This document shows positions 26,180 through 56,970 of a DNA stretch of 64,000 bases, in pieces. The stretch lies in contig OY762964.1 in the NCBI GenBank assembly GCA_963667035.1, forward strand, positions 448,001 to 512,000. The letters are read 5' to 3'. The position numbers and the translations under genes are program-made. The stretch is from Candidatus Cloacimonadales bacterium. GTDB lineage: Bacteria; Cloacimonadota; Cloacimonadia; Cloacimonadales; JAFGVF01. How positions within the stretch are numbered: the first letter of the stretch is position 1; the number at the start of each line of letters is the position of its first letter. The notes beneath the pieces are model-generated. The model saw nothing but the letters and a program-made list of their open reading frames with translations, was not told the origin of the DNA and did not search any database.

Positions 26180-26262
26180 TACCGGGTACGCGGACATCCT
26201 TGTCCGCACTCTTTGTAGGCAAGATGCCTGCCTATAAACAAGGGCAGGATATACCTGCCCCC
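26180..26262. repeat. Three-hairpin REP-like element, copy 1
   Basis: GGGTAC-GCGGACATCCTTGTCCGC; GTAGGCAAGATGCCTGC; GGGCAGGATATACCTGCCC. Confidence 0.85.
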
Positions 26263-26275
26263 AATATCCATAGTT

Positions 26276-26310
26276 TTATTTGAGTAGCATCATTTTCTTT
26301 GTCAAGATTT
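26276..26310 (-). pseudogene. Orphan 3' end of a large-gene CTD (ILTKKMMLLK*)
   Basis: 33/35 nt identical to the last codons of 56987-60121; both differences are synonymous. Confidence 0.75.
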
Positions 26311-26353
26311 CCTCTTCTATAAAAAATATTGTGTAAATTATAAACATTTGCGA

Positions 26354-28777
26354 CTACTTCACTACCATCATCTTTCCAATGGCTTCACTTCCTTCACAGC
26401 TGACTTTATAGAAGTATATCCCTGATGCTACAGATTTACGATTATTATCCTTGCAATCCCATACTTGTGAGTAATACTCACCGGACTGCTTATCCTCGGA
26501 TGATAAACCTGCACTTCTTACTAACTGTGAGAAACTCTGAGTTATCTTAATATCTCTAACCTTCTGACCTCTGATATTGTATATCTCTAATGTAGGTTTC
26601 CCTATAGGTTTCTTTGGTAATGTAAACTCAATGAATGCAACTTTCCCATTATTACCGTTAGGTGTTACCGGATTAGGAAAATGCGATAACTGGATTGTTG
26701 AAGGTGGAGAGGGTGCTGTTTCATTGTAAATATCTACAGTAGGATTATATTCATGTGCTCCCATATCTATTATATTACCCCATACTCTCGGATTACCCGT
26801 TATATCCAATGCCGGCAAGTTCATACCTAATGTATCAGGTGTTCCTGCATTCACGCATGGAGAATTCTCTGTTAGTTGTACCCATCTTGTATCTCCAACA
26901 GGTACATCACCTTCTACATCTCCACGAAACATCGGATTTGCATCAATATTATTTACTCCCCACAATACATTGTTGTTGGGATTATCTGCTCCCGGTACTC
27001 CTGAAATTCCGTTTCTTACAAGACTGTAATCTATATCAATATTTGACCATAATGGATTAGTATCTCCATTTATCGGTTCCCAAACAACCATTTCATAAGC
27101 TCCGTTAGGATTATAAATAATATTGTTTCTGAGAGAGAAATCTCCACCAAATCTTGTGATTGCTGTGGGACTTGTATTGTATACTATTGACATATTATTT
27201 AGAGTACATTCATCATGTCGTGTAGAAAATAGTATCAAAGGTAAAGAATTAGATAAAGAAGTGTTATTATATGCTAAGAAATTGTTTAGCTCTAAGTTTC
27301 CACAGGTTTCACTTGCTAAAGTGTTACTATACTGAAAAATAGATCCTGGTTCGTTTATTACTGAGTTTGTAATCATCATATTATTGACTGTAACATCACT
27401 TTTCTCAAGCTTCACAAACAATGAACTTCCTTCTTGCATAACATTGACGATATTATCTACAATAATACCATTTAAAGTAATGTTATCACATTCATAGAGT
27501 TTAACACATGAAATCCTTGTCTCACTGTTTAAAACGTCTGAAACTGTGATGTTTTCGATTACGGAGTTTGAAATAGAACTAAAAGCAATACCCGGCTCTT
27601 GATTATAATTGTTTTTTAAAATTATATCATGAATATATAACTCATTACTTCTACTAGCTCCTAAGCAAAAGTCTGAGTTAAGACTTGATTGCATCATAGT
27701 AATATTACTAATTTCAACATTAGTTACATTTCGTGGTATTATTTGATATAGACTGAGTTCACTACCGATAATAACTTCTTCTGGAGATAATCCTAATCCA
27801 ATTAATTTAGTATTGGATTGAAGAGCAACAGGAAAAAACTGGTTATTCAGTTCTGAACTGTATGTCCCCGGTAACACATGAACCGTGTTAGGATTCAAAC
27901 TAACCGGTTGAATTATTCTACTCGCATAAGCAATAGTCTGTAATGCAGTTTCGGGAGTTAGACCATCATTGTTATCATCTCCATCAGGTGATACATACAG
28001 GTCTGCATCAATTTGATTGAAATAATTGTTCTGTACTGATATTTGTGGATTAGGTAATCCATCTTCGTGATAGTGTGATACAAAGAAACCGTCAGGTTCG
28101 GATATATCAATGCTAAGTGTATCGAGGATAATGCTAGTACATTGAGAGTTATAAATGAAAATATCTTGTACATCTCCATAGTTATTGTGTATACTGTTCA
28201 GATCTATTGGATCGAATGTAATCGATGCATTGTTGATTCCAATTCCTCCACCTTGATAAATTGAGCTGTTATCAAAAATACATGAACCGGAAATAACTAG
28301 ATTACTTGAATTGATGCATCTGATTCCACCAGATTTGTATGCTGTATTTCCTGTAATATTACAATTACTTATGCTAGCATTGCTTTGTTGTTTAATGTAT
28401 ATGCCACCGCCATATCTTGAATTACCATATCCAATCCCATTAGTTATTGTAAACCCATTAAGAGTAGCATTCTGTTCACCAGATATAATTACTACACAAC
28501 TGGATTGCTGATTACCATCAATGATGGTCGATTCAACTATACTCCAATCTGGATTATTGATATAATCACTGCATAAAGTAATATTTTTCCCTGAATAGTT
28601 AATGTTTTCAAAATACCTACCGGGATGTACAAGTACTGTATCACCATTGTTTGAGGCATCAATAGCAGATTGAATAGATGTATATGAATGAGCTCCATCA
28701 AGTGATACTTCAAGAGTGGTTGAACTGAGAGTCAGCATTACCGTTAATAATGATATTAGCAAACAAAGTGTTTTCAT
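26354..28777 (-). CDS. Secreted beta-helix CTD protein, paralog B
   Basis: Same motifs as A; 3' ~715 bp nearly identical to A. Confidence 0.85.
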   Translation of the reverse strand: MKTLCLLISLLTVMLTLSSTTLEVSLDGAHSYTSIQSAIDASNNGDTVLVHPGRYFENINYSGKNITLCSDYINNPDWSIVESTIIDGNQQSSCVVIISGEQNATLNGFTITNGIGYGNSRYGGGIYIKQQSNASISNCNITGNTAYKSGGIRCINSSNLVISGSCIFDNSSIYQGGGIGINNASITFDPIDLNSIHNNYGDVQDIFIYNSQCTSIILDTLSIDISEPDGFFVSHYHEDGLPNPQISVQNNYFNQIDADLYVSPDGDDNNDGLTPETALQTIAYASRIIQPVSLNPNTVHVLPGTYSSELNNQFFPVALQSNTKLIGLGLSPEEVIIGSELSLYQIIPRNVTNVEISNITMMQSSLNSDFCLGASRSNELYIHDIILKNNYNQEPGIAFSSISNSVIENITVSDVLNSETRISCVKLYECDNITLNGIIVDNIVNVMQEGSSLFVKLEKSDVTVNNMMITNSVINEPGSIFQYSNTLASETCGNLELNNFLAYNNTSLSNSLPLILFSTRHDECTLNNMSIVYNTSPTAITRFGGDFSLRNNIIYNPNGAYEMVVWEPINGDTNPLWSNIDIDYSLVRNGISGVPGADNPNNNVLWGVNNIDANPMFRGDVEGDVPVGDTRWVQLTENSPCVNAGTPDTLGMNLPALDITGNPRVWGNIIDMGAHEYNPTVDIYNETAPSPPSTIQLSHFPNPVTPNGNNGKVAFIEFTLPKKPIGKPTLEIYNIRGQKVRDIKITQSFSQLVRSAGLSSEDKQSGEYYSQVWDCKDNNRKSVASGIYFYKVSCEGSEAIGKMMVVK

Positions 28778-28796
28778 AGTTCCTGCTTTTTATATA

Positions 28797-28880
28797 TACC
28801 GGATAAGCGGACATCCTTGTCCGCAATCTTTACAGGCAAGATGCCGGCGAACAAAGAAGGGTAGGACATGCCTACCCTCT
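28797..28880. repeat. Three-hairpin REP-like element, copy 2
   Basis: GCGGACATCCTTGTCCGC; ACAGGCAAGATGCCGGC; AGGGTAGGACATGCCTACCCT. Confidence 0.85.
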
Positions 28881-28894
28881 AACGATTATATTGT

Positions 28895-31800
28895 TTATTT
28901 AAGTAACATCATTTTCTTTGTCAAGACTTTGTCGTTTGTTTTTAAACGATAGAAATATACACCTGATGATACTTGTTTATTATTCTTGTCACTACCATTC
29001 CAAACTACAGAATGATACCCCGGCTTGAGATGTTTATTAACAAGTGTAGCTACTTTCTGCCCTCTTATATTGTAGATATTTAGTTTTACATCAGATTCAC
29101 TGGAAATGTTATAGTTTATTGTTGTTGTTGGATTAAACGGGTTCGGATAATTTCCTACCAATGAAGTATAGAGGGGTATTAAACCTTGCTCTAAATCTTC
29201 TTTCTTAAATGAGATGTAAGCAAATCCTTCATTACAATCATTAGTAGTTAGTTTTTTAGCGATGAATTTCTTCTCAATTCTATCCATAACAGCATATTTT
29301 TCAATTGCTTTCTTATCTCCTTTATAAGAGTAAGCTAGTTGAAAGGAAAGCTCTTCTCCCAATAAAGAAGGGTCATCAACAACATAAGCTTTCAGAATTA
29401 CATCATTGGATTTTATTACTTCAGCTCCTTTGCATTCGTTATCCACAAACACTGCAATCTCTATTGGTTTATCTCCTTCACCAATTTCATCCATATCAAA
29501 AGAACAAAGTATTGGATAATAATCTTTCTGTTCCTCATAATCAAAACAAACTGGTAGCTCAACAACAGTTTCATTTACACCAGTTCCATTTGAATCCCAA
29601 GTAATTCCAATCGGCTCTGTATCTGTTGGATCTTCAGGCTCATGCTTTGCCCAACAAACAAAATCAACCGCTTCACCGTAGTTCAACGTAGGTGGATTAG
29701 TACCGATATATGAACTAATCCAAGTAGTTTTAGCTCCACTTTGTTGAGTGTTCAAATATGATAAGTTTATAGCTGACCAATATCTAGTTTTTATAGCAGC
29801 CATTTGGTCTAGAATATCTTCATCAATTGCTTCAAAGATTGTTTGACCGTCTCTAAGATAATACCCAACTAAAGTAGATTTTGTATTATCATTGATTCCC
29901 GGTCTGAATATTTTCATGTTCAAATTATTACTGTTATTGTTGGATGTACCGTTTCTAAATCCATCAAACTCAAGGAATACTGCATCAGGTGCTTCTTCTG
30001 TAAGTTTTAACTTATATCCTTTGATAGTATCAATAGATTCAGTTAGAGATGTCCATTCATTGTTTTGAACATCCCATCCTATCTGACCTGGCTCATCATA
30101 GCTCCAAAAAATTTCATCTAAGATTTCTGAATCTTCTTCGAAAGGAAGACTATCTATTCTATCTCCGTTAGTATTATAATGATACATTTGCACACCAAAA
30201 ACATACTCTGCTTGGGAGTAAGAACTAGCTCTTAACTCATCAATTCCGGGAAGGCAAATCCAATTATAGCCATCCTTGTCTAGTTCTAAGACACTATTCT
30301 CAACAGTAAATTCTCCGTTATTATCAATTGGTAAGTAAGGAATTGCACCTATATCTGGTCGCGACATATCTCTATCTCTATCTTCATAGTCACCTAATGG
30401 GTTTCCATTTCCAAGGAGTAGTAGTTCTTCATACCACAAAATCCCATCTCCATCCATATCTGGATTACCAGAATTAATACAAGGTGATTTTTCTGTAGCT
30501 GTCCAGCTTGGAGTATAATTTATGTCTATGAGCGGATTTATATCAATTAGATTATTTTGTGTAATCAGTGGATGAGTAGTATTTCCAATAAAATCCCAAT
30601 TGTCTGTATTGTTATTAAACAAGCAAAAGTTTACATTGAGTTCCTCAGTTGTTGTAATTGTGCCATCATTCCAATTAATGGCATTCCCGATTATATTAGA
30701 AAAAATACTATTATTTATAGTAATCCCTGGACCTTTTTCATGTACAAACCCATCACCTGTAATATTTAACAAAGTATTATTATTGAAAGTAAAGTAGTTG
30801 TTTGGATTCATTACAGTTCCATTATATACAGATTTTAAGCCAAATATTTCTATGCCATCAAGTACGTTATGTGTAAACTCAAAGTTGTTTCTGCCAAAGT
30901 AGTCATTGAAAAGAACAGCACCATCTGACTGGTTCTTAAACATATTGTGAGATATTTCAATCTTTGTGTAAGTCTCTTCTGATAACTCATTACTTATTAG
31001 TTCATCGTAAATTTTCATTGATGGAGTCTCAGCATCATAAGTTCTATTAAACATACAGTTAGTAATTCTTAAATTATCTAAACTACCGGTTCTTCTAATA
31101 TAAATATCCGCAGCTACATTGATATCATAGTTATTTGTAAAAGTGCAATAGTCAAAGTTGATTGAGCCAGTTCCTATATCATTATTGACGATTACACCAC
31201 CACCACTATTTGAACAAATTTAAGATGACCCACCTACAGATGTATCTGAGAAATTGCTAATAAAAGAACAGCTCTGAACATCTATAGAACCAGATAATGC
31301 CAATGCACCTCCACCAATAACTGAATCACAATGATTATAGTCGAATATACAGTCCTGAAACATAGGAGCCTCTTCTTGGTCAACCACACCTTGAACAAAC
31401 ACAGCTCCTCCAACTCCAATACAATTATCTGAAAGATCATAATTATTACATCCTGAATAGTTTGTGCTATTGTTGAAAAAATAACATCTATCAACAATAG
31501 GAGAAGCTCCATTCAATAGTGTTATTGCAGGTCCTCTCGTATAAGTTTGGCATTCTTCAAATCTAAATCCCTCAATCGTGTCGGTGTTATCAATTCCTTC
31601 CCAATCAAGCTTTATTGCATGGTTTGTGCTAGTTAACTCAGCAGGGTCTTGCTGATTAGTAAATAGACGAATATGTTTATGTCTCCACGATAGGTTGCTT
31701 ACCTGGTATGCACTACCGTCTTGATTTGGAAAGACTACAACAATTCCATCATCTTGAATACGATCAATTGCTTCTTGAATAGACTGATAGTCATAAGGTA

Positions 31801-34156
31801 CTCTAATGATCCGATCACAATTTTCAACAAGTTGAATAGATATAGAAGTGCTTAAATCAATCAGACCAGGAGCTTGATCTGGGTACTTTTTATTCTCAAA
31901 ATTATTAGAGTTATGCTGAAAAACCAATGTAACTTCTTCATCCTCTGGACATGGGAAAGAAAATGAGCCATCTGAATTACTAAAGTAGAAATACTCTTCT
32001 CCATTTTCATTGGTCAAAATAATTCTTGTAATTCCTGTATGAGGTGGATTTCCCGTATAACCTTCTAATGATATATTTCCATTAATAAAATTAAGGACCT
32101 TAATGGTTCTTATATAGCATTTATAGTTTGGGGCTGTTACAGTCAAAGTAATCGGACTATTTGTTTCAGGAGTAAATGTAAAGGTAATGCTACCATTAAC
32201 ATCTGTTTTGCCATATTGATACACATCATCTTCACTTTTTAAACAAACTAGTGCATCAAACACACCAGTCTCGACTGTTATTGAATTCTCAATGTTAATT
32301 CCAATATTACTATTGGATATATTCACTATAAAGTCTTGTGGATCTTCCGTTAGCAATGGAAGTTCAGGATCTCCCAACAGGTTATGAGAGTACATTAACC
32401 AAGAGTATGAGTTAAATGAATCAGGAAGCATATTTTTTGAATAATTAAAACATGCTCCTAAATGAAACGATTGATTATCTGAGTTCTGCATAAACAGACA
32501 TTGGTAGAAATCTTTTATCAAAGTTAATGAAGAACCTAAGTCGGCTGTAACTTGAAAACCATTCCCCCAGCCATAGCGAGAACTCCCTATATAAGCTACT
32601 GCACCACCATTTTCTCTACGTGTAAAGCCTTCTCCTAAACTTAATTGGCTACTATCAAAACTATTTGTATTACATGCAGTTGTTGCTATGATACCTTGAG
32701 TTGAACTATTTGATAGAGATGATAATGTTTCTGTGTCAAAATAATCACCAGATTCCATTACCCATAAGTTTGTACTTCCATGCGTGCACATTACCATAAA
32801 TCCATATCCTGTGTTAATTCTATCCTTAACATGGTTTTCTGTTACATCATAACTTGCACCTTCAAAGCTAGTATCGCTATCATACAATTTGTCATGAGTT
32901 CCACTCGACCAATAAGGGGATATGTAATTATTCCACATATTCTCTAAACGCCAATAAGCATCACTATTAATAGGATATCCCCAACTATGCCAACATTCAA
33001 TACCACTCATAAGCATTTCTGTAGCAAAATTACTACTTGGAGGATACTGTTCATAATTAACAGTTTTATTAACAAATGAATCAACTGTTGCATCTGTAAC
33101 AGAAGCTCTTCCTATGTAAACTTCTGGTCCTAAATCAATATTATCTGTTGTCTCTCCGCATATTCCATTATTATTGGCATCCCAATTGAATGAAAGGTCA
33201 AAACAGGAATAAAAAAGGTCTGCAGGGATAGTAGCATCTGCACAACTACCGCATTCTGCATAACAATCTTGGTCTGGTATTACATCAATATCTCCTCCTA
33301 GTAGAAACCATGTTGTCCCTTTGTTTAGGTAATAGTCATGTATGCAATTCTTAATCTTAAGCTGATTTGTTGCTCCTGGGAAATTAGAGTATATGAATTC
33401 GGTAGTAATAATTTCTGCTGGAACTCCTTTCTGAGTTTTCCAATCAGCTAATACTTCAAAATTATCAGAAAGTTCATTATTAGTCAGTATTAAATAACTA
33501 ACATCGTTGGGATTAGAGGGGGATCTGTTAGTGCAAGTACTAACATCATTAGGATTTACCACGATTCTCTTAAGCTCTTCTCCAAAGGAGCCATCATCCC
33601 AGTTCAGTGAGGTAGCATTTTTAAAATCAGAATACTCAATATCAATCTTGATATTTGTCACTATCCAAAGCTCTTTACTTGCCGGATAGTAAATAAATGG
33701 AGATTGGAGAAATGAGAGATATTTATAACATCTTATAATAGTAGAAGACGTATATGTACAATTCTTTTCCGGGAACATTTTTTGAGAATTATAAATCAAA
33801 GGATTAGGTTCTACTTTGACAATGTCTTTTTTACTAATTGATGTAGGGTACTCATTTTGAGCCTGAGCTATTGTAATATCTTTATCTACCAATTCCAAAT
33901 CATAACTTACATCTATACCAGTAAATTCAGCACCAATTGGGACGGAGTACCTTATTTGTTTATATGGCAAATTAGGAGAGCCTGCTTCACCTGAGTATAC
34001 ATAATCGAAATTGCTTCTAGGTTGAATCTGAGTACCATCTTCTGTCTCTAAAAATTCAAAGTTTTCTACTTGATAATTTAATGTGATTGAAGCTTTTGTT
34101 GCGGATAGCAAAGAAATAGCAACAAGTAACATCCATGTGATAACTCTACTTTTCAT
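28895..34156 (-). pseudogene. ~1750-codon C25 peptidase + beta-helix + CTD gene split by one in-frame TAA (31220-31222) into the 978 aa and 719 aa ORFs
   Basis: The frame continues past TAA (GGSS*ICSNSGGGVIVNND...) directly into the 719 aa ORF (168 nt offset). C25 motifs WKTQKG, LLGGD, IGRAS, CTHG, TTACNT, NLLGDP; CTD GNYPNPFNP...KKMMLLK. Confidence 0.82.
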
Positions 34157-34474
34157 ACTTCCTCCAATAATAAATGCATTTGTGTCATTTTATTGTTTGC
34201 ACAACATCAAGTTGTCTTCCCAGTTCTCTTTCCTTTAGAATTGCTTATAGAGATAATTGTTTAATTATATTTTAATAAGTCAAGATATTTAAAAATCTAC
34301 TAGAAATGTAAATAGCATTTTATGAATATGTAGTTACATGCATACTAATAACTCAAAGAGCTATATTATGTCAGTATATTTAGCATACTTAGTCATAGCA
34401 TTAACTTGTGAGAGTTGCAGTATAATACAGAATGATTTTCTTCAGAGAGTGCTTACTCAGTGAGCTATTTATAT

Positions 34475-34550
34475 CTATTTGACAACCATCATCTTTCCAA
34501 TCGCTTCTTTACCTTCACAGCTAACTTTATAGAAGTATATCCCGAAGGCT
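34475..34550 (-). pseudogene. Orphan 3' end of a fifth beta-helix-family paralog (AFGIYFYKVSCEGKEAIGKMMVVK*)
   Basis: Matches the CTD end of paralogs A-D; no upstream homologous sequence seen. Confidence 0.8.
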
Positions 34551-35013
34551 AGAGATCTATGTATTATATTAAAGTCCATTTTAAGTAATTCAAGAATCAT
34601 CAGTTCAAATAGAGGAATAGGGAGTTACTTATCTCCCGGATTATAAATTGATTTTGGTTTGAAATCTTTAACGTAGATTTTTGTATTATTTTTATTATTA
34701 GATTTCATAGTATTCATTAGTTAAGTATCTGAAAGTAGATTGTAGATACACCTCTTAAATTATAAAAATAGCTCTTGTATGGGATTCATATTCCTGCTTC
34801 TTACGCCTCATGAGATACTCGTTAGCTTCCCGTTACAGGAGATGGAAAATAGATAAGTACAGTATGGGGTCTAGATTGACTATGAATTATTATTATGATA
34901 CAGCAATATAATTGCAAATAAAAAGGCAGATTATCTTGATAATCAGCCTCAGACTGTTGACAAAAACATTCTAATTTACATGGATATATTGTTGAAAGTC
35001 ATTTTTCTTCATT

Positions 35014-36486: not shown

Positions 36487-36562
36487 AACCACCTCTAATT
36501 ATGATGGTTTAAGTATAATATTTGGAGAAATCTGTCAATGATTGATGTTCTTATTTTAAGCT

Positions 36563-36603
36563 AAAAAAAGACAAAGCTATGAAATATTACTCATAGCTTT
36601 GTC
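36563..36603 (-). terminator. IS-internal terminator shielding the transposase from valS read-through
   Basis: GACAAAGCTATGA-8nt-TCATAGCTTTGTC followed by T7 on the minus strand; overlaps the IR. Confidence 0.75.
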
Positions 36604-49115: not shown

Positions 49116-49154
49116 GAAAAGTCCTAAAGAGATTTACTAATAGAGTAGGGAAAG

Positions 49155-49180
49155 AGGAGCTTGTTTACTAACAAGCTCCT
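49155..49180 (-). terminator. Hairpin after iorB
   Basis: AGGAGCTTGTT-TACT-AACAAGCTCCT. Confidence 0.7.
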
Positions 49181-49187
49181 GATATAT

Positions 49188-49763
49188 TTATTTAGATGCA
49201 GCCTCACTTCCGGCTTTGAGAGCATTAAGGTTTAATTCTACAACCTTATCTCCTTTTGAACCGAAAATATCTTTAATCGCTGTAATGAGTTGTTCCATTG
49301 AGAAACAAGTCTTATCAGCAGCAGCTCCAACCATCACGATATTAGAGGCTAAAACATTACCAAGCTCTTTGGCAATATCTTCTGCGTCTATGAGAATGTG
49401 ATTCTTAACTTTTTTCACATCATTGTAGATAGTTTCTATCTCAGGATAGTTAGGGATGTTAACAAAAGGTTTTGAGTTTGTTATCAACCAACCGTCTTTT
49501 GATAATAAAGGAAGATATCTAAGTCCTTCCATAGGCTCAACAGATAAGATTATATCTGCTTCACCGTCAGGAATCAAGTCAGAATAGATTTCTTTATCAG
49601 AAATACGAAGATGTGACTGTACGTCTCCGCCACGTTGACTCATTCCGTGAACTTCCGCTTGTTTAAGGAAGAGGTTCTCTTTGATAGCAACTTGTCCGAA
49701 TACTTTTGCGATGGTAAGAATACCTTGTCCGCCAACACCGGCTAAAATAATATCTAATTTCAT
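49188..49763 (-). CDS. iorB: Indolepyruvate:ferredoxin oxidoreductase beta subunit
   Basis: GVGGQG, EVHGMSQRGG. Confidence 0.92.
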   Translation of the reverse strand: MKLDIILAGVGGQGILTIAKVFGQVAIKENLFLKQAEVHGMSQRGGDVQSHLRISDKEIYSDLIPDGEADIILSVEPMEGLRYLPLLSKDGWLITNSKPFVNIPNYPEIETIYNDVKKVKNHILIDAEDIAKELGNVLASNIVMVGAAADKTCFSMEQLITAIKDIFGSKGDKVVELNLNALKAGSEAASK

Positions 49764-49780
49764 TTATCTTACCTCCGTCT

Positions 49781-51391
49781 TTATTTCTTTTGAGCTTTCT
49801 TCTGAGCTCTCATTCTACGTGTCATTGTTTGGATGCATTCACGACGAGGGATAATCACGGATACACCTTCGTATGCAAATTCTTCTTTATAAACCTGTAT
49901 CATTTCTTCATGATGTCTCTTGAGAGGAGTTACGACTCTGATGTGGTCTTTCTCAACACCTAAACCGATACAGATATCTTCAAGTTTCTTCTCTGCTGTG
50001 TATGATTGACCACCGGTCATACCTGTTGTAGCGTTATCAAGAATAACAATAACTACGTTGGATTTATCATAGATACAATCAAGCAAACCTGTCATACCGC
50101 TATGTGAAAATGTTGAGTCACCTATAACAGCAACTGCAGGGAACAGACCTGCATCAGCAGCACCTTTAGCCATAGTGATTGATGCACCCATATCAAGACA
50201 TGTGTTAATTGAGTTATAAGGAGGCATAAATCCGAGAGTATAGCAACCTATATCTGAGAACACATGTCCGTCGCCATGCTCTTTTAAAGCTTCATTAAGA
50301 GTTGTGAATGAATCAATGTGAGGACAACCAACGCATAATGCAGGTGGTCTTCCTACGATGTCTTCTGGAATATCAAGTATTTCTTCTTTACCGAAACCAA
50401 GAGCTACGGCAACTTTATTAGGATCCATTTCTCCATCGCGAGAGAAAGTACCGTCAAGACGACCTTTAATTTTGTCGTTTCCTGAGATATAACCTTTAAG
50501 CATCTCTTCAACAACAGGCATACCGTCTTCTACAACGAGTATTTTGTCACATTCGTTATACATTCTTTCAACAAGCTTTCTGGGTAATGGATAATGACTG
50601 ATTTTTAAAATAGGGAAATTACATTCTCTGTTTACAAAGTTCTCCATTACATAGTTATAACCTAAACCACAAGCGATAATACCGAGTGATTTATCGGAAC
50701 CGTCTTTGTAGCTGTTGAATTGTGATTCTTCGGCAGCGGCTACAAGTTCTGATTGCAGGTTAAGAAGGTTCTTATATTTTCTACGTGAGAAAGCAGGTAA
50801 TAGCATGAATTGATTCTTGTCTTCAGGAAGTTGAAGTTTGTTCTCAGCAAGTCTTTCTCTTCTGATAACGCCTGCTCTGGAATGAGAAAGACGAGTTTCA
50901 AGTCTAATCATCACAGGAAGTTTGAATCTTTCAGATAACTCGAAAGCAAGGAAAGCCATATCATAGCATTCTTGCTGATTTGATGGCTCAAGACATGGAA
51001 TCATAGCGAATTTAGCGTAAAAACGTGAGTCTTGTTCGTTCTGTGAAGAGTGCATAGAAGGATCATCTGCAACTGCAACTATTAAACCACCGTTAGCTCC
51101 AACAAAGGCTGAATTCATAAATGGGTCTGCAGCTACATTCAATCCAACGTGCTTCATACATGTCATTGTACGCTTTCCGGCATAAGACATTCCAACAGCT
51201 TCTTCAACAGCTGTTTTTTCGTTTGAAGCCCAAGTTCTGTGAACATTACGCTCTGCTGCTTCTTTGTTATGTTGGATGTACTCCATTATTTCAGTGGATG
51301 GTGTTCCGGGATAGGCAAAACAACCTGACATTCCGGCGTCTAATGCACCTTGTGCCAATGCCTCATCTCCGAGTAACATCAATTTCTGCAT
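49781..51391 (-). CDS. iorA: Indolepyruvate:ferredoxin oxidoreductase alpha subunit
   Basis: YPGTPSTE, MKHVGLNVAAD, SSQNEQD, LCVGCPH, DIGCY, GDSTF..SG, LDN.TT.MTGGQ. Confidence 0.93.
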   Translation of the reverse strand: MQKLMLLGDEALAQGALDAGMSGCFAYPGTPSTEIMEYIQHNKEAAERNVHRTWASNEKTAVEEAVGMSYAGKRTMTCMKHVGLNVAADPFMNSAFVGANGGLIVAVADDPSMHSSQNEQDSRFYAKFAMIPCLEPSNQQECYDMAFLAFELSERFKLPVMIRLETRLSHSRAGVIRRERLAENKLQLPEDKNQFMLLPAFSRRKYKNLLNLQSELVAAAEESQFNSYKDGSDKSLGIIACGLGYNYVMENFVNRECNFPILKISHYPLPRKLVERMYNECDKILVVEDGMPVVEEMLKGYISGNDKIKGRLDGTFSRDGEMDPNKVAVALGFGKEEILDIPEDIVGRPPALCVGCPHIDSFTTLNEALKEHGDGHVFSDIGCYTLGFMPPYNSINTCLDMGASITMAKGAADAGLFPAVAVIGDSTFSHSGMTGLLDCIYDKSNVVIVILDNATTGMTGGQSYTAEKKLEDICIGLGVEKDHIRVVTPLKRHHEEMIQVYKEEFAYEGVSVIIPRRECIQTMTRRMRAQKKAQKK

Positions 51392-51686
51392 AGTATACTC
51401 CTTACTTATTTTATTGTAATTTATTCAAATAATCCACACTTGCTATTTTCAAGCAAGCATTTTTTGCATTGTTTAAATACTCTGTGTTATATAGTAAGTT
51501 ATAAGAACGAGTTGAAGTTACAGCTTTTTTTAATACTCCCTTTGTAACTATTAGACAAGCATGCTTTTTATAAGTGTAGTGGGAAGATAACACTTTATTA
51601 TTGATTTGCAATGTAACTTAATAGGTGTTACTTCTTTTGTATATGGCATGTAAAGACATGTTGGGAATTTGTCTACTTTATTCTTT

Positions 51687-51800
51687 ACCGGATATGCGGA
51701 CATCACTTACCTGTCATTACGAAACCTATGGTAAAGTCCGGTTCGTATGTGTTGCAGGCAAGATGTCTACGAACAAAGAATGTCAGGACGTGCCTACCCT
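51687..51800. repeat. Three-hairpin REP-like element, degenerate copy 3 with expanded first hairpin
   Basis: ACCGGATATGCGGACATC...insert...GTCCG; GCAGGCAAGATGTCTACGAACAAAGAA; AGGACGTGCCTACCCT. Confidence 0.75.
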
Positions 51801-51816
51801 TCAATAATTATATTAT

Positions 51817-54243
51817 TTACTTCACTACCATCATCTTTCCAATGGCTTCACTACCTTCACAGCTGACTTTATAGAAGTATATCCCCGATGCTACAGATTT
51901 ACGATTATTATCCTTGCAATCCCATACTTGTGAGTAATACTCACCGGACTGCTTATCCTCGGATGATAAACCTGCACTTCTTACTAACTGTGAGAAACTC
52001 TGAGTTATCTTAATATCTCTAACCTTCTGACCTTTGATATTGTAAATCTCTAAGGTTGGTCTCTCTATAGGTTTCTTTGGTAATGTAAACTCAATGAATG
52101 CTACTTTCCCATTATTACCGTTAGGTGTTACCGGATTAGGAAAATGAGATACTTTTATTGCAGAAGGAGGGGTGGGGGCTGTTTCATTGTAAATATCTAC
52201 AGTAGGATTATATTCATGTGCTCCCATATCTATTATATTACCCCATACTCTCGGATTACCCGTTATATCCAATGCCGGTAAGTTCATACCTAGTGTATCA
52301 GGTGTTCCTGCATTCACACATGGAGAATTCTCTGTTAGTTGTACCCATCTTGTATCACCAACAGGTATATCACCTTCTACATCTCCACGAAACATCGGAT
52401 TTGCATCAATATTATTTACTCCCCACAATACATTATTGTTGGGATTATCAGCTCCCGGTACTCCTGAAATTCCGTTTCTTACAAGACTGTAATCTATATC
52501 AATATTCGACCATAATGGATTAGTATCTCCTTCTGCTGGAACCCATACACCCATTTCATAAGCTCCGTCAGGATTATAAATAATGCTGTTTCTGATAGTA
52601 TAATCCCCTCCAAATCTAGTCATTGCTATTGGACCTGTATTATGAGCAATTGTCATATTATTAACAAAACACTCATTATGATAAGATGATAACAGAACCA
52701 TTGGCATCCAACTGGTAAAAGATGAAGAGTTGTTATATACAAGTAGATTATTGAGCTCTATATTTCCAACAGTTTCGCTATAACTTGGATTACTATACTG
52801 AAAAATTGTTCCAACTCGATCAACGGTAGTATTTGAGATTACTATATTTGTTGCAGTAACATCACTTCTATCTAACATAACTAATAATGATGTGTTTTCA
52901 TCGTTAACGGTATAAATGTCATTAACCAGAAAATTGTTTATCACTAAATTGTCACACTCATAGAGCATTATACAATTAACACTTTCTTCATAGTTTACAA
53001 TATCCTTAGCGATAATGTTTTCTATTATACTATTATCACAAAATAGGAGACTTAATCCGCATTTTTCATTATAATTATCTGAAAAAATAATGTCATGAAT
53101 ATATAGATTGTTACACCAATTTATTCCCAAGGAGGGCGGGGCGTCAGATTCAACAAATGAAGACTTAAATCGTCCAATCTCAATGTGCTCAGCAGTCTTT
53201 ATATAAATACAGTTTGAATCATATACATCTCCAATAACTACATCTTCATTAGTATTGCCAGCCCCAAGTAACTTAGTGTGTGATTGCATTGATATAGGAA
53301 AGAATTGATTATTGTATACGTTATATGTACCGGGAAGTAGATGGATGGTATTAGGATTCAAACTATTCGGTTGAACAATCCTATTTGCATAAGCAATTGT
53401 TTGTAAAGCAGTTTCGGGAGTAAGACCATCATTGTTATCATTACCAAGAGGAGAGACATATAAATCAGAGTCAATCTGTATGATATATGGATTTAACACT
53501 GATACGTGAGGTGGCGGTGTTTCATTGCTAACAAATGAAATGAAATATCCGTCTGGTTCATCTATAATAATGCTGAGAGTATCAAGAATAATATCAGTAC
53601 TTATAGAAAACTGTAGATAAATATCCTGCACAGCACTATAATTATTGTAAATACTATTTAAGTTGATGGAATCAAAGTATACAGTTCCTTCATGTACTCC
53701 AAGACCACCGCCCCAACCTTTAGCTATGTTGTTTCTTATAATATTGCCAGATAAAGAGATATAGCTATTCTCATACACTCCTATACCCCCAGAATGACTA
53801 GAAGTACTATTCTGAATAATGGAATTATTTAATTCTAGCTGACTGTTATCGTGAACAAGAATGGCTCCACCATAATCATAGTTTTCATTGTAATGATACC
53901 CAATACCGTTTTCCATTAGAAATCCATTAATAATTACATTTGAATTTGTTTCTATCCTAATGCAATTTGACAGAAAGTTAGCATCAATTATTGTGTTTAG
54001 GACATCGTCCCAGTTATTAGTTATCTCATATTGACTTTGTAGTGTTACCGTCTTCTCAAGAATGTCAATATGTTCAAAATATCTACCGGGATAAACATGA
54101 ATGATATCACCATTATTTGCATCATCAACTGCCGATTGGATAGAAGTATATGAATGAGTACCGTCCAGTGATACTTCTCTTAAAGTTGAGTTAAGAAAAC
54201 ATAACGAGACAATAAATACTGTAAGTAATAAAACTCTTCTCAT
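51817..54243 (-). CDS. Secreted beta-helix CTD protein, paralog C
   Basis: Same architecture as A/B; leader MRRVLLL shared with D. Confidence 0.85.
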   Translation of the reverse strand: MRRVLLLTVFIVSLCFLNSTLREVSLDGTHSYTSIQSAVDDANNGDIIHVYPGRYFEHIDILEKTVTLQSQYEITNNWDDVLNTIIDANFLSNCIRIETNSNVIINGFLMENGIGYHYNENYDYGGAILVHDNSQLELNNSIIQNSTSSHSGGIGVYENSYISLSGNIIRNNIAKGWGGGLGVHEGTVYFDSINLNSIYNNYSAVQDIYLQFSISTDIILDTLSIIIDEPDGYFISFVSNETPPPHVSVLNPYIIQIDSDLYVSPLGNDNNDGLTPETALQTIAYANRIVQPNSLNPNTIHLLPGTYNVYNNQFFPISMQSHTKLLGAGNTNEDVVIGDVYDSNCIYIKTAEHIEIGRFKSSFVESDAPPSLGINWCNNLYIHDIIFSDNYNEKCGLSLLFCDNSIIENIIAKDIVNYEESVNCIMLYECDNLVINNFLVNDIYTVNDENTSLLVMLDRSDVTATNIVISNTTVDRVGTIFQYSNPSYSETVGNIELNNLLVYNNSSSFTSWMPMVLLSSYHNECFVNNMTIAHNTGPIAMTRFGGDYTIRNSIIYNPDGAYEMGVWVPAEGDTNPLWSNIDIDYSLVRNGISGVPGADNPNNNVLWGVNNIDANPMFRGDVEGDIPVGDTRWVQLTENSPCVNAGTPDTLGMNLPALDITGNPRVWGNIIDMGAHEYNPTVDIYNETAPTPPSAIKVSHFPNPVTPNGNNGKVAFIEFTLPKKPIERPTLEIYNIKGQKVRDIKITQSFSQLVRSAGLSSEDKQSGEYYSQVWDCKDNNRKSVASGIYFYKVSCEGSEAIGKMMVVK

Positions 54244-54262
54244 AGTTCCTGCTTTTTATATA

Positions 54263-54345
54263 TACCGGGTACGCGGACATCCTTGTCCGCAATCTTTGCA
54301 GGCAAGATGCCTGCGAACAAAGAAGGGTAGGATATAGCTGCCCCC
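54263..54345. repeat. Three-hairpin REP-like element, copy 4
   Basis: GGGTACGCGGACATCCTTGTCCGC; GCAGGCAAGATGCCTGC; GGGTAGGATATAGCTGCCC. Confidence 0.85.
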
Positions 54346-54358
54346 AATATCTATAGTT

Positions 54359-54393
54359 TTATTTGAGTAGCATCATTTTCTTTGTCAAGATTT
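54359..54393 (-). pseudogene. Orphan CTD 3' end (ILTKKMMLLK*)
   Basis: Identical to 26276-26310. Confidence 0.75.
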
Positions 54394-54436
54394 CCTCTTC
54401 TATAAAAAATATTGTGTAAATTATAAACATTTGCGA

Positions 54437-56869
54437 CTATTTCACCACCATCATCTTTCCAATCGCCTCACTTCCTTCACAGCTGACTTTATAGAAGTAT
54501 ATCCCTGATGCTACAGATTTACGATTATTATCCTTGCAATCCCATACTTGTGAGTAATACTCTCCGGCTTGCTTATCCTCGGATGATAAACCTGCACTTC
54601 TTACTAACTGTGAGAAACTCTGAGTTATCTTAATATCTATAACCTTTTGCCCTCTGATATTATAAATCTCTAAGGTTGGTCTCTCTATAGGTTTCTTTGG
54701 TAATGTAAACTCAATGAATGCTACTTTCCCATTATTACCGTTAGGTGTTACAGGATTAGGAAAATGAGATACTTGTATCGAAGAAAGTGGGGTTGGTGCT
54801 GTTTCATTGTAAACATCTACAGTAGGATTATATTCATGTGCTCCCATATCTATTATATTACCCCATACTCTCGGATTACCCGTTATATCCAATGCCGGTA
54901 AGTTCATACCTAGTGTATCAGGTGTTCCGGTATTCACACATGGAGAATTCTCTGTTAGTTGTACCCATCTCGGGTCTCCAACAGGTATATCACCTTCTAC
55001 ATCTCCACGGAACATCGGATTTGCATCAATATTATTTACTCCCCACAATACATTATTATTAGGATTATCTGCTCCCGGTACTCCTGAAATTCCGTTTCTT
55101 ACAAGACTGTAATCTATATCAGTATTCGACCATAATGGATTAGTATCTCCACTTGCCGGAGTCCAGACACTCATTTCACATCCTCCTTCCGGATTATGAA
55201 TTATACTGTTTCTGATAGCATAATCTCCTCCAAATCTTGTGATTGCTGTGGGACTTGTATTGTTTGCAATTGTCATATTATTGAGAAGACATTCATTATG
55301 ATAGGTAGAGAAGTTAAACATAGGCATATGAGCCCAATAATAAGCAGCAGTATTATTATATGCTATGAAATTACTTAATTCAAGGTTACCATATGTATAA
55401 CTGTAACTCGGATTAGAATATTGGAAGATTATACCACTTCCATAAGTTGTGCAATTTGAGATTATCATATTGTTCACAGTAACATCACTTCTGGAAAATG
55501 AAACACAATGATGAAATGCATCATAATTTGTATTTGTCACATTGTTGACAATTACGTTGCTAAAATTGATATTATCACATTCATATGTTTTTATGCAAAT
55601 TAGTCTATCAATATTGTTTTGTATATTTTTTATTGTTACATTTTCAATCAAACAATTAGAACTAGAGCTCAAATTTATTCCAGGAATATAATTGTAGTTG
55701 GTCTCAAACATCATATCATGAAGATATAATCTATTACAACTCCCTACACCTAATGTTGATTCTGTCCCGGCTTGAGAGAATGTAAATCTAATCTTGCTAA
55801 TTTCAACATTTTCAACCATGTATAGTTTAACACTATTCATACCATATATATCCCCAATGGTCACTTCTTCAATCATACTACCTGTACCAAGTAACTTAGT
55901 GTGTGATTGCATTGATATAGGAAAGAATTGATTATTGTATGTATTATATGTACCGGGAAGTAGATGAATGGTATTAGGATTCAAACTATTCGGTTGAACA
56001 ATCCTATTTGCATAAGCAATTGTTTGTAATGCCGTTTCGGGAGTAAGACCATCATTGTTATCATTACCAAGAGGAGAGACATATAAATCTGCATCAATTT
56101 GTGTTAGCCAACTGTTTTGAGCTGAAACAGCAGGTGGACTTGAGCCATCATCATGATAGTAGGAGACAAAGTAACCGTCTGGCTCATCCAATGTGATGCT
56201 TAATGTATCAAGAATAATATCTGTACTTGTAGAGAACTGTAAATATATATCCTGGACAATACTATAATTATTGTATATACTATTCAAATTAGATTGATCA
56301 AAGATTATGTCACCATTTTTGACTCCAAGACCACCACCCCAATAAATAGCCCTGTTATTTCTTATTGTATTGTTTGAGAGAGAAACAGTGCTACCATTAT
56401 TACATAAAACTCCACCATTATACATCCCATAATTATTTTCAATAATGCAGTTTACTATGTCTACATCACACTCGTTATTAATAGAAATACCGCCACCATA
56501 ACTTACATCATCTCCATAAGAAAAACCAATCCCATTAGTTAATACAAATCCATTTAACAGAACTGTGCAATTGTCCTCAATCCTAATGCAGTTTGATTGG
56601 GAGTCTGCATCAATTATTGTGTTTAGGACATCGTCCCAGTTATTAGTTATCCCATATTGGCTTCGTAGTGTTACTGTCTTCTCAAGAATGTCAATATGTT
56701 CAAAATATCTACCTGGATAAACATGAATGATATCACCATTATTCGCATCATCGACTGCCGATTGGATAGATATATATGAATGAGTACCGTCCAGTGATAC
56801 TTCTCTTAAAGTTGAGTTAAGAAAACATAACGAGACAATAAATACTGTAAGTAATAAAACTCTTCTCAT
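54437..56869 (-). CDS. Secreted beta-helix CTD protein, paralog D
   Basis: Same architecture as A-C. Confidence 0.85.
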   Translation of the reverse strand: MRRVLLLTVFIVSLCFLNSTLREVSLDGTHSYISIQSAVDDANNGDIIHVYPGRYFEHIDILEKTVTLRSQYGITNNWDDVLNTIIDADSQSNCIRIEDNCTVLLNGFVLTNGIGFSYGDDVSYGGGISINNECDVDIVNCIIENNYGMYNGGVLCNNGSTVSLSNNTIRNNRAIYWGGGLGVKNGDIIFDQSNLNSIYNNYSIVQDIYLQFSTSTDIILDTLSITLDEPDGYFVSYYHDDGSSPPAVSAQNSWLTQIDADLYVSPLGNDNNDGLTPETALQTIAYANRIVQPNSLNPNTIHLLPGTYNTYNNQFFPISMQSHTKLLGTGSMIEEVTIGDIYGMNSVKLYMVENVEISKIRFTFSQAGTESTLGVGSCNRLYLHDMMFETNYNYIPGINLSSSSNCLIENVTIKNIQNNIDRLICIKTYECDNINFSNVIVNNVTNTNYDAFHHCVSFSRSDVTVNNMIISNCTTYGSGIIFQYSNPSYSYTYGNLELSNFIAYNNTAAYYWAHMPMFNFSTYHNECLLNNMTIANNTSPTAITRFGGDYAIRNSIIHNPEGGCEMSVWTPASGDTNPLWSNTDIDYSLVRNGISGVPGADNPNNNVLWGVNNIDANPMFRGDVEGDIPVGDPRWVQLTENSPCVNTGTPDTLGMNLPALDITGNPRVWGNIIDMGAHEYNPTVDVYNETAPTPLSSIQVSHFPNPVTPNGNNGKVAFIEFTLPKKPIERPTLEIYNIRGQKVIDIKITQSFSQLVRSAGLSSEDKQAGEYYSQVWDCKDNNRKSVASGIYFYKVSCEGSEAIGKMMVVK

Positions 56870-56888
56870 AGTTCCTGCTTTTTATATA

Positions 56889-56970
56889 TACCGGGTACGC
56901 GGACATCCTTGTCCGCAATCCTTGCAGGCAAGATGCCTGCGAACAAAGAAGGGTAGGACATGCCTACCCT
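56889..56970. repeat. Three-hairpin REP-like element, copy 5
   Basis: GGGTACGCGGACATCCTTGTCCGC; GCAGGCAAGATGCCTGC; AGGGTAGGACATGCCTACCCT; all three stems perfect. Confidence 0.88.

What the first reader, a model, noticed from the sequence alone, without database searches (positions are those of the whole stretch)
26180..56970. Five copies of a ~83 bp three-hairpin element, always just after a CTD stop codon and usually just before a paralog start
Seen: copies at 26180, 28797, 51687, 54263 and 56889. All 5 lie about 13-17 nt downstream of a CTD stop (real or remnant). Four lie about 20 nt upstream of a paralog ATG. Hairpin 3 shows a compensatory change (GGGCAGG/CCTGCCC vs GGGTAGG/CCTACCC), with a G-T intermediate in copy 4, suggesting selection on structure. 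The elements are GC-rich in AT-rich DNA. Hairpins 1 and 2 form an inverted doublet with GTAC/GTTC feet. Established: a tetranucleotide foot plus palindrome in inverted doublets is the REP/REPIN layout acted on by RAYT HUH nucleases. Inference: the element is either a ssDNA nicking/recombination site that delimits gene cassettes, or a structured RNA leader that stabilises or processes these mRNAs. It has no poly-T tail, so it is not a simple terminator.
Basis: partly seen in the sequence, partly recalled or inferred. Interest (0 to 1): 0.8.

Follow-up and report, generated by a model that had tools for sequence, protein, structure and literature searches.

The report
Terminator hairpin plus REP doublet
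The repeated 83-base element is a transcription-terminator-like hairpin joined to a pair of small palindromic repeats from a genome-wide mobile-repeat family, and it was copied along with a duplicating family of secreted-protein genes.

Summary
The five copies are real. The genes lie on the minus strand. In that sense each element reads: stop codon, 13-17 nt, hairpin 3 with a T-rich tract (terminator-like), then hairpins 2 and 1, then about 20 nt, then the next ATG.

Hairpins 1 and 2 are an inverted doublet of a genome-wide REP family. The unit is GCNNNCW-RG(G)A-WGNNNGC followed by the foot GTACCCGGT. A covariance model finds 107 units in the 3.1 Mb genome.

REPs and close RAYT orthologues co-occur in relatives.

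The link to CTD genes is not a property of the family. Most REP clusters are nowhere near CTD genes, and the CTD-linked ones collapse to three co-duplicated groups.

The claim of no poly-T tail is wrong on the sense strand. Copy 4's "G-T intermediate" is a recombinant of copy types 1 and 5.

One point stays open. The whole intergenic module is far better conserved than its coding flanks (96% against 62-72%) and across species (93.5% against 76% for housekeeping DNA).

Verdict: a new member of a known kind (a REP/RAYT system, apparently in Cloacimonadota), of moderate interest.

The parts
26180..26262 (-). Copy 1. Foot TACCGGGTAC 26180-26189; hairpin 1 at 26190-26207; hairpin 2 at 26215-26231; hairpin 3 at 26242-26260.
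   Evidence: Folds as three hairpins, z -3.65. Hairpin 1 hits the REP model at E 2.6e-8.
26263..26353 (-). Spacer plus a 78-nt remnant of another paralog's CTD end with its own stop (26276-26278), lying between the real stop of gene B (26354) and copy 1.
   Evidence: 90/91 identical to the matching stretch beside copy 4.
28797..28879 (-). Copy 2. Hairpin 1 has the foot variant TTATCCGGT; hairpin 2 stem is GCCGGCA/TGCCTGT; hairpin 3 is GGGTAGG/CCTACCC.
   Evidence: Hairpin 3 is called terminator-like at 28879-28857 on the minus strand. z -2.66.
51687..51802 (-). Copy 3, decayed. It has a 33-nt insertion in hairpin 1 and mismatches in hairpins 2 and 3, and no paralog start downstream.
   Evidence: Fold z -0.45.
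54263..54345 (-). Copy 4. Hairpins 1 and 2 are intact. Hairpin 3 is broken because its two arms come from different copy types (c1-like and c5-like).
   Evidence: z -1.83.
56889..56971 (-). Copy 5. Foot ACCGGGTAC 56890-56898; hairpin 1 at 56899-56916; hairpin 2 at 56924-56940; T-rich tract (sense TTCTTTGTTC) at 56941-56950; hairpin 3 at 56951-56969.
   Evidence: Terminator-like call at 56971-56949 on the minus strand. z -4.30.
23842..26160 (-). Paralog A, 772 aa, T9SS C-terminal sorting domain. Its ATG lies 19 nt from the foot of copy 1.
   Evidence: CTD found by an HMM trained on this genome, E 2.7e-22. No Pfam hit at E <= 0.001.
26354..28777 (-). Paralog B, 807 aa, with CTD.
   Evidence: Pfam CHU_C 22.8 bits, below its cut-off of 27.
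28895..31054 (-). Paralog C, 719 aa. Its CTD passes Pfam's cut-off.
   Evidence: Por_Secre_tail 31.3 bits, cut-off 27.
51817..54243 (-). Paralog A', 808 aa, with CTD.
54437..56869 (-). Paralog B', 810 aa, with CTD.
56987..60109 (-). Paralog C', 1040 aa from the ATG. Its CTD passes Pfam's cut-off.
   Evidence: Por_Secre_tail 33.3 bits.

Best explanation
The 83-nt element is a composite of two things.

(1) Hairpin 3 is the intrinsic-terminator-like hairpin of the upstream secreted-protein gene. It is a G+C-rich 7-9 bp stem lying 13-17 nt after the stop and followed by a T-rich tract on the sense strand.

(2) Hairpins 2 and 1 are an inverted doublet, with feet pointing outward as in a REPIN or BIME. 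The units belong to a genome-wide family of repetitive extragenic palindromes. Each unit is a 7-bp hairpin with fixed outer pairs, a variable middle and an RG(G)A loop, plus a conserved 9-nt foot GTWCCCRGT.

Inferred mechanism: these REPs are, or were, bound and cut as single-stranded DNA hairpins at the foot by the genome's two REP-associated tyrosine (HUH-Y1) transposases, which spread them.

The five window copies did not arise by five insertions. One doublet was captured between a terminator and the start of a paralog. It was then copied with the gene family by tandem and segmental duplication and gene conversion, giving ten composite or doublet copies in this genome, all beside this family.

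Shown: the repeat family, the stem covariation, the doublet polarity, the RAYT genes and their REP flanks, co-occurrence in relatives, and homology that runs through the flanks.

Inferred: RAYT cleavage, termination at hairpin 3, and any effect on mRNA stability.
For: Repeat family in this genome:
- The REP model R1 finds 107 matches at E <= 1 and 93 at E <= 0.01. 150 of 394 first-look candidates were scored, and 69 of the matches were training rows.
- An independent regex scan gives 107 units in 61 clusters.

Stem covariation, tested without circularity:
- There are 128 exact foot sites, against about 37 expected from base composition.
- 55 of them abut a perfect 7-bp hairpin. The same test at seven offset positions finds 0-6.
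- The hairpins use 16 different arm sequences.

Doublet polarity: of adjacent unit pairs within 60 nt, 23 share orientation, 21 have feet outward and 0 have feet inward.

RAYT genes:
- Two Y1 genes of 179 and 184 aa, 69% identical, are each flanked on both sides by REP clusters.
- Their best NCBIfam match is REP_Tyr_transpos, 68-70 bits.
- HVH, Y and N at Y+4 are invariant in 16 of 16 aligned relatives.
- In the PDB fold search, all 30 matches with E <= 0.001 (22 listed) are HUH-Y1 transposases, with the E. coli RAYT 4er8 at rank 3.
- No TnpB-size ORF lies beside either gene.

Relatives:
- REP matches occur in 11 of 11 genomes of the same family and in 3 of 29 genomes of other families of the order.
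- Those 3 are exactly the genomes outside the family that carry an orthologue at least 54% identical.
- In all, 11 of 11 genomes with a close RAYT have REPs, and 26 genomes have neither.
- REPs flank the orthologues in G011, G015 and G031.

Terminator: hairpin 3 of c2 and c5 is called terminator-like. Other copies carry TTTTTT after it.

Co-duplication: the ten copies share the same stems, spacer and distance to the ATG, and their flanks are homologous.

Recent mobility: REP units lie inside a Mu-like prophage and in frame inside hsdM.
Against: - There is no experiment and no RNA data. No RNA run was listed.
- The NCBIfam score is below the curated cut-off (68-70 against 80).
- The foot is G[TA]AC within ACYGGGWAC, not the canonical GT[AG]G.
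- Unit orientation shows no bias that mirrors between the replichores.
- Three same-genus genomes have REPs (21, 15 and 9 matches) but no close RAYT.
- RAYT orthologues in G004, G006, G009 and G016 are not flanked by R1-type units. In G004 they are flanked by different hairpins.
- The simple terminator scan calls hairpin 3 in only 2 of 5 window copies, and the T tract is interrupted.
- A selfish repeat plus passive co-duplication does not explain the conservation of the module. It is 115/120 identical between c2 and c5 while the coding flanks are 62% and 72%. It is 93.5% identical over 168 nt between two species whose housekeeping DNA is 76% identical.
Confidence: 0.8

Rival explanations
1. 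The whole intergenic module is a functional non-coding element kept by purifying selection. It runs from the last codons of the CTD through the spacer, hairpin 3, the doublet and the leader up to AAAGCAGG. It could be an RNA structure that ends and protects the upstream message, or one that sets the 5' end, stability or translation of the downstream paralog. On this reading the REP doublet has been co-opted.
For: - Island of conservation with sharp edges: c2 against c5 is 115/120 identical, against 62% and 72% in 300 nt of coding flank on either side.
- G000 against G001 is 93.5% over 168 nt, while the adjoining gene is at most 69% identical and a housekeeping stretch is 76%.
- In eight copies the stems vary less than the unpaired columns: 12/46 against 20/41, p 0.044, with related copies.
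- There is one compensatory change in hairpin 3.
- Copy 3, which no longer precedes a paralog, has decayed.
- In G001 the same layout occurs with a different terminator hairpin: CTD stop, hairpin, doublet, paralog ATG.
Against: - This gene family undergoes gene conversion, which can also produce such islands. Its 3' ~950 nt are 88-98% identical among paralogs against 62-77% elsewhere.
- The G000 and G001 copies compared are not at syntenic places, so the 93.5% may reflect transfer or cassette movement.
- The covariation term in the composite alignment is about zero (0.34).
- There is no Rfam match.
- No RNA data exist.
Confidence: 0.3
2. The module is a recombination joint for gene cassettes. 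It gives conserved homology, or a RAYT-nicked hairpin, at which paralog cassettes are exchanged, duplicated or moved. This diversifies a family of T9SS-secreted surface proteins.
For: - Copy 4 is a chimera whose crossover lies in the loop of hairpin 3.
- Identity among the paralogs is mosaic.
- CTD-end remnants lie in front of copies 1 and 4, and in G001.
- In G001 the module plus a paralog gene lies in a ~5 kb insertion between flanks that are 60 nt apart in G000.
- The orthologous place of the A'-B'-C' cluster in G001 holds 2.4 kb where G000 holds 9.2 kb.
Against: - Only one crossover is mapped inside the element.
- Any conserved stretch attracts homologous recombination without being a dedicated site.
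- Other block borders lie at the stop codon, not in the hairpins.
- There is no evidence that the RAYT cuts here.
Confidence: 0.2
3. Passive co-duplication of a meaningless intergenic stretch: the hairpins are a local accident with no relatives elsewhere.
For: The five copies do owe their number to gene duplication.
Against: About 100 further units occur elsewhere in the genome and in all 11 searched genomes of the same family. They show stem covariation, a fixed foot and cognate transposase genes.
Confidence: 0.02

Closest known systems
REP/BIME/REPIN elements with their RAYT (TnpA-REP) transposases, as in E. coli and Pseudomonas. Sources: PMC3116915 and PMC3337134 (search listing and abstracts); PMC3733652 and PMC6006769 (passages read).
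   Same: Short G+C-rich extragenic hairpins with a conserved foot beside the stem, about 100 copies, and singlets, tandem arrays and inverted doublets of one polarity. There are low-copy HUH-Y1 transposase genes flanked by the repeats (a REPtron layout). Repeat and transposase co-occur across genomes. Some units lie in frame inside genes.
   Different: The foot is G[TA]AC inside a 9-nt ACYGGGWAC, not GT[AG]G. The stem is only 7 bp, with three freely covarying middle pairs and a conserved loop. The protein scores below NCBIfam's RAYT cut-off. I could not place it in a published subclass. By its closest named relatives the host appears to be Cloacimonadota. My searches found no paper describing REP/RAYT in that phylum.
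IS200/IS605 insertion sequences (TnpA Y1)
   Same: The same protein fold and catalytic motifs. Both recognise sub-terminal DNA hairpins.
   Different: This genome also has true IS200 copies: about six, counted. They have their own hairpin, CACCTGC-AGA-GCAGGTG, and score better on the IS200 profile. The two RAYT-like genes are single, differ from each other by 31%, carry N rather than Q at Y+4, and are flanked by arrays of the dispersed repeat.
Rho-independent terminators
   Same: Hairpin 3 has a G+C-rich stem and a 5-nt loop, is followed by a T-rich tract, and lies within 17 nt of a stop codon.
   Different: The T tract is interrupted in the window copies (TTCTTTGTT). It overlaps the decayed foot of the inverted REP unit. 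Termination is not shown.
Integron attC sites (the 'delimits gene cassettes' idea)
   Same: An imperfect palindrome sits between the stop of one gene and the start of the next.
   Different: The hairpins belong to a dispersed REP family that lies mostly away from these genes. The 'cassettes' are 2.4-kb paralogs of one family. I did not search for an integron integrase.

Membership tests
REP/REPIN-RAYT system | A short palindromic unit repeated many times, mainly between genes | tested here: met
   107 covariance-model matches at E <= 1. 107 units in 61 clusters. 48 of the 61 clusters lie outside crude ORFs, and several of the 13 'inside' cases are artefacts of over-long ORF calls.
REP/REPIN-RAYT system | A hairpin maintained by compensatory change | tested here: met
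   55 of 128 exact foot sites abut a perfect 7-bp hairpin with 16 different arm sequences; offset controls give 0-6. One search agrees, but its alignment had been selected for perfect stems.
REP/REPIN-RAYT system | The canonical GT[AG]G tetranucleotide foot | tested here: not met
   The foot next to the stem is GTAC, GAAC or GACC, inside the conserved ACYGGGWAC. Non-GTAG feet are reported for some RAYT classes in PMC6006769 (passages).
REP/REPIN-RAYT system | Inverted doublets of fixed polarity (REPIN/BIME) | tested here: met
   21 pairs with feet outward and 0 with feet inward, within 60 nt.
REP/REPIN-RAYT system | A low-copy Y1 HUH transposase gene flanked by the same repeats | tested here: met
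   Genome 2952203-2952742 and 1509010-1509564 have REP clusters on both sides. Pfam Y1_Tnp scores 50 bits against a cut-off of 23.
REP/REPIN-RAYT system | A RAYT-type protein signature | tested here: inconclusive
   NCBIfam REP_Tyr_transpos is the best hit, but 68-70 bits is below the cut-off of 80. Y-x3-N is invariant in 16/16 aligned relatives. The fold search does not separate RAYT from IS200.
REP/REPIN-RAYT system | Repeat and transposase co-occur across genomes | tested here: met
   11 of 11 other genomes with an orthologue at least 48% identical have REP matches. 26 genomes have neither. 3 same-genus genomes have REPs only. Related genomes are not independent.
REP/REPIN-RAYT system | The transposase binds and cuts the single-stranded REP hairpin | not testable with these tools
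   This needs protein and oligonucleotide assays.
Intrinsic terminator (hairpin 3) | A G+C-rich stem followed at once by a T run on the transcribed strand, just after a stop codon | tested here: met
   c2 and c5 are called by the scan. c1 has TTGTTTAT, and other genome copies have TTTTTT. The hairpin lies 13-17 nt after the stop.
Intrinsic terminator (hairpin 3) | Transcripts end there | not testable with these tools
   No RNA run was listed.
Any curated Rfam RNA family | A match to a covariance model | tested here: not met
   At gathering scores the window matches only a tRNA elsewhere. Copy 5 gives nothing better than E 2.1.

The most novel reading that the evidence does not exclude
The ~120-165-nt intergenic module (CTD end, terminator hairpin, REP doublet, leader) is a domesticated, selected unit. 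It serves as the junction of movable cassettes that encode T9SS-secreted proteins. A REPIN has been co-opted, with or without RAYT nicking, to drive duplication, exchange and relocation of surface-protein paralogs, or to set their expression. That would explain why the module is better conserved between species than housekeeping genes.
Probability: 0.15. Interest if true: 0.65.

Novelty: new member of a known kind. Interest (0 to 1): 0.4.

Why it matters
It identifies a full REP/RAYT system in a little-studied lineage. The system has about 100 units, two cognate transposase genes, and apparently a second REP family with a third Y1 gene. The closest named relatives are Cloacimonadota MAGs.

The foot and stem differ from the classic GTAG type. 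That gives a fresh test case for how Y1 nucleases read hairpin plus foot.

It also shows how a REP doublet can be captured by an expanding gene family and then look like a gene-specific signal. Motif hunters should note this caution.

The unexpectedly strong conservation of the whole intergenic module is a concrete lead on co-option of selfish repeats.

Tried and rejected
- Rfam gave no family for the element.
- The look-up of sequencing runs listed no RNA holder, so I did not lay reads and no transcript ends could be mapped.
- Replication-strand bias of unit orientation: the bias does not mirror between replichores (fwd 22+/27-, rev 18+/40-).
- Preference for a type of intergenic region: nothing clear. 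Observed: divergent 15, tandem 25, convergent 8. Background: 218, 817, 161.
- CTD enrichment: 11 of 24 clusters that follow a stop follow a CTD gene, against 151 of 2216 genes (p 1.6e-7). After collapsing co-duplicated copies it is 3 of 16 (p 0.09). In G007 it is 1 of 30 loci, using a CTD HMM trained on G000 that may miss distant CTDs.
- Sigma-70-like promoter scan: no excess in one region (38 found against 36.9 expected) and nothing conserved between hairpin 1 and the ATG.
- Placing the RAYT in a published subclass: the Y motif fits class 2, not class 3, but no subclass could be assigned from the passages read. I did not open that paper's supplementary tables.
- I considered an integron attC reading and set it aside without an integrase search.
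Full report
**Observation**

The neighbouring genes are all on the minus strand, so I read the element in that sense (alignment A1). The order is:
- stop codon of a protein with a T9SS C-terminal sorting domain;
- 13-17 nt;
- hairpin 3 (GGGYAGG, 5-nt loop, CCTRCCC), followed directly by a T-rich tract (TTCTTTGTT or TTGTTTAT);
- hairpin 2 (GCAGGCA TCT TGCCTGC);
- a 7-nt spacer;
- hairpin 1 (GCGGACA AGGA TGTCCGC) with the foot GTACCCGGT;
- about 20 nt;
- the ATG of the next paralog.

Details of the individual copies:
- Copies 1, 2, 4 and 5 are 83 nt and 53-57% G+C, in a window of 34.8%.
- Copy 3 is a wreck. It has a 33-nt insertion in hairpin 1, mismatches in the other two stems and no gene start after it.
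- As RNA, copies 1, 2 and 5 fold into the three hairpins (z -3.65, -2.66, -4.30). Copy 4 (z -1.83) and copy 3 (z -0.45) do not.

**What hairpins 1 and 2 are**

Searching the whole genome (3.10 Mb, 35.6% G+C, one contig) showed that the two hairpins are not special to this locus. They belong to a dispersed family. Each unit is a 7-bp hairpin GCNNNCW / WGNNNGC with loop RGA or RGGA, followed by the foot GTWCCCRGT.

Counts:
- A covariance model built from 69 clean units (A2 and R1) finds 107 matches at E <= 1 and 93 at E <= 0.01 in the genome. 150 of 394 candidates were scored.
- A rule-based scan gives 107 units in 61 clusters. A mononucleotide shuffle of the genome passed 28 sites under the scan's loose filter.

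Covariation: alignment A2 was chosen for perfect stems, so its 100% pairing proves little. The independent test is:
- There are 128 exact foot sites, against about 37 expected from base composition.
- 55 of them abut a perfect 7-bp hairpin. The same test at seven offset positions finds 0-6.
- The hairpins use 16 different arm sequences.

So the stem is kept by compensatory change while the foot and loop stay fixed.

Polarity: hairpin 2 is a unit in the opposite orientation. Its foot has decayed in this genome to GTTCCAAAA or GAACAAAGA. In a same-genus genome it is still the full ACCGGGAAC. Across the genome, adjacent units within 60 nt are either in the same orientation (23 pairs) or inverted with feet outward (21 pairs). 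They are never inverted with feet inward (0 pairs). This is the REPIN/BIME type of order.

A search with Pfam Y1_Tnp found 13 matches. About six belong to a true IS200 with its own hairpin, CACCTGC-AGA-GCAGGTG.

Two others are different: genome 2952203-2952742 (179 aa) and 1509010-1509564 (184 aa), 69% identical to each other.
- The first is flanked on both sides by the same four-unit REP cluster, two units in each orientation.
- The second is flanked by units with a slightly different foot, GTTCCAA / GGACC.
- The model R1 hits both flanks of both genes.
- Their best NCBIfam match is REP_Tyr_transpos at 68-70 bits. That is below the curated 80 but well above the IS200 model at 42 bits.
- In an alignment with 14 relatives, MPNHVH, SWKS and Y-I-x-x-N are invariant. 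According to the figure legend quoted in PMC6006769 (passages), N at Y+4 is the RAYT state and Q the IS200 state.
- An AlphaFold model (pLDDT 87) matches only HUH-Y1 transposases at E <= 0.001. All 30 such matches are of this kind, and the E. coli RAYT-REP complex 4er8 ranks third. The fold does not separate RAYT from IS200.
- No TnpB-size ORF lies beside either gene.

**Relatives**

With R1, all 11 other genomes of the same family have matches (7-87 each). Only 3 of 29 genomes from other families of the order do.

With the 179-aa protein, orthologues at least 48% identical occur in G004-G011, G015, G016 and G031.
- All eleven of these genomes have REP matches.
- The three outside the family (G015, G016, G031) are exactly the three outside genomes with REP matches.
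- Twenty-six genomes have neither.

Counter-evidence:
- Three same-genus genomes (G001-G003; two of them 72-83% complete) have 21, 15 and 9 REP matches but only a 35-39% identical Y1 protein or none.
- REPs flank the orthologues in G011, G015 and G031. They do not flank them in G004, G006, G009 or G016. In G004 the flanks carry arrays of a different hairpin.

These genomes are related to one another, so none of this is a statistical test.

The closest named relatives of the protein are Cloacimonadota MAGs (61% identity). More distant relatives are in Acidobacteriota, Planctomycetota, Verrucomicrobiota and Bacteroidota.

**Hairpin 3**

Hairpin 3 is not a REP unit. It occurs only beside this gene family.

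On the sense strand it is followed by a T-rich tract. The simple scan calls it terminator-like in copies 2 and 5. Copies elsewhere in the genome carry TTTTTT.

The double change C-G to T-A is real but is a single event, seen in copies 2 and 5. The covariation term of the composite alignment is about zero.

Copy 4 is not an intermediate. Left of the hairpin-3 loop it matches copy 1 (remnant and spacer 90/91). Right of the loop it matches copy 5 (leader 20/20). It is a recombinant, and on the RNA strand its odd pair is C-A.

**Why it looks CTD-specific**

The genome has at least 134 Pfam CTD matches. By an HMM trained on this genome, 151 of 2216 crude genes carry a CTD.

The REP family as a whole is not tied to these genes:
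- 47 of 61 REP clusters have no CTD gene within 250 nt.
- Of 24 clusters within 250 nt after a stop, 11 follow a CTD gene.
- Seven of those eleven belong to the window's own gene family. Homology there runs through the flanks, and all ten genome copies share the same stems, the same spacer and the same distance to the ATG.
- Three more belong to a second co-duplicated group.
- Collapsed to independent groups, the count is 3 of 16 (p 0.09).
- In G007, from another genus, 1 of 30 REP loci follows a CTD stop.

The window clusters A-B-C and A'-B'-C' are an old segmental duplication, 62-77% identical. Their 3' ~950 nt have been homogenised to 88-98%.

**What remains unexplained**

The intergenic module is much better conserved than its surroundings.
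- Copies 2 and 5 are 115/120 identical, while the 300 nt of coding sequence on either side are 62% and 72% identical.
- A copy in G001 is 93.5% identical over 168 nt to the G000 copy at 439 kb, with sharp edges about 20 nt before the stop and 8 nt before the ATG.
- The adjoining G001 gene is at most 69% identical to any G000 paralog. A housekeeping stretch of 4,966 nt is 76% identical between the two genomes.
- The two places are not syntenic. In G001 the module and its gene lie in a ~5 kb insertion between flanks that are 60 nt apart in G000.
- In eight composite copies the stems vary less than the unpaired columns (12/46 against 20/41, p 0.044; the copies are related).
- G001 also has the same layout built with a different terminator hairpin.

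Selection on an RNA or DNA function, gene conversion and cassette movement are all compatible with these facts. I could not separate them, because no RNA run is listed.

**Comparison with what is known**

The system works like, and by most tests is, a REP/RAYT system (a REPtron with dispersed REPs and inverted doublets).
- Its foot is not the canonical GT[AG]G.
- Its stem is shorter than usual.
- The protein falls below NCBIfam's cut-off.

PMC3733652 and PMC6006769 (passages read) describe GTAG- and CGTC-tagged REPs and RAYT classes with atypical feet in Bacteroidetes, Planctomycetes and Acidobacteria.

My searches found no paper that treats REP or RAYT in Cloacimonadota. I searched 'RAYT', 'REPIN', 'Cloacimon' and 'Bacteroidetes', 'Cloacimon' with 'extragenic palindrom', and 'RAYT' with 'type IX secretion'. 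The two hits I saw as listings only.

**Verdict**

The CTD-specific link, the no-terminator claim and the G-T intermediate are not supported.

This is a new member of a known kind. The conserved module is a lead worth following.

Noticed in passing
Genome 853240-853731 (outside the window); L011 1072-1128 and 1786-1842: A third Y1 transposase gene (204 aa, 37% identical to RAYT-1) is flanked on both sides by a different repeat: hairpin GCAAGTG...CACTTGC followed by ATAGCTC...GAGCTAT. That stem has 10 perfect-hairpin copies in the genome, and the repeat also sits after CTD stops at 1780 kb, 1782 kb and 2362 kb. It is probably a second REP/RAYT system.
   Followed up: partly
L009 3599-5278 (-), genome 2955512-2955573: Two REP units lie in frame inside the HsdM_N domain of a type I methylase gene next to RAYT-1. 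The domain match spans 186 residues for a 135-position profile.
   Followed up: partly
L014 (genome 1650001-1663000): A Mu-like prophage (Portal_Mu, Mu F, Mu transposase) carries about a dozen REP units. One is a four-unit tandem array inside a 795-aa open frame that joins the portal and F domains. Others lie inside the Mu transposase ORF. This suggests REP insertion after the prophage arrived.
   Followed up: partly
Window 23842-24774, 26355-27346, 51817-52812, 54438-55390: The 3' ~950 nt of four paralogs are 88-98% identical while the rest of the genes are 62-77% identical, and the block ends at the stop codon. This looks like gene conversion of the C-terminal part.
   Followed up: partly
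L020 about 1010-1060 (genome 434 kb); window 51700-51740: Small insertions sit exactly in REP hairpins. A 47-nt insert with its own inverted ends lies in the loop of hairpin 2 at 434 kb, and a 33-nt insert lies in hairpin 1 of copy 3.
   Followed up: no
L128 192-354 (G001); genome 1965762-1965924, 154050-154207, 587053-587216, 2880121-2880219 and others: A ~160-nt repeat with inverted ends (a MITE-like element) has at least seven copies in this genome at 79-91% identity to the G001 copy. Several lie within 0.5 kb of REP clusters. It has no Rfam match.
   Followed up: no
L137 (G001:C2:1-12000) against window 51532-60753: The place orthologous to the A'-B'-C' cluster holds only 2.4 kb in G001, against 9.2 kb here. 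So this cluster is gained here or lost there.
   Followed up: no
L156, L157 (G007): In another genus two of the 30 best REP matches lie inside open frames of 926 and 963 codons. REP matches there also cluster at 2-3 kb spacing in three regions.
   Followed up: no
Window 31220-34156 (-): A gingipain-type Peptidase_C25 gene with its propeptide lies directly upstream of paralog C.
   Followed up: no
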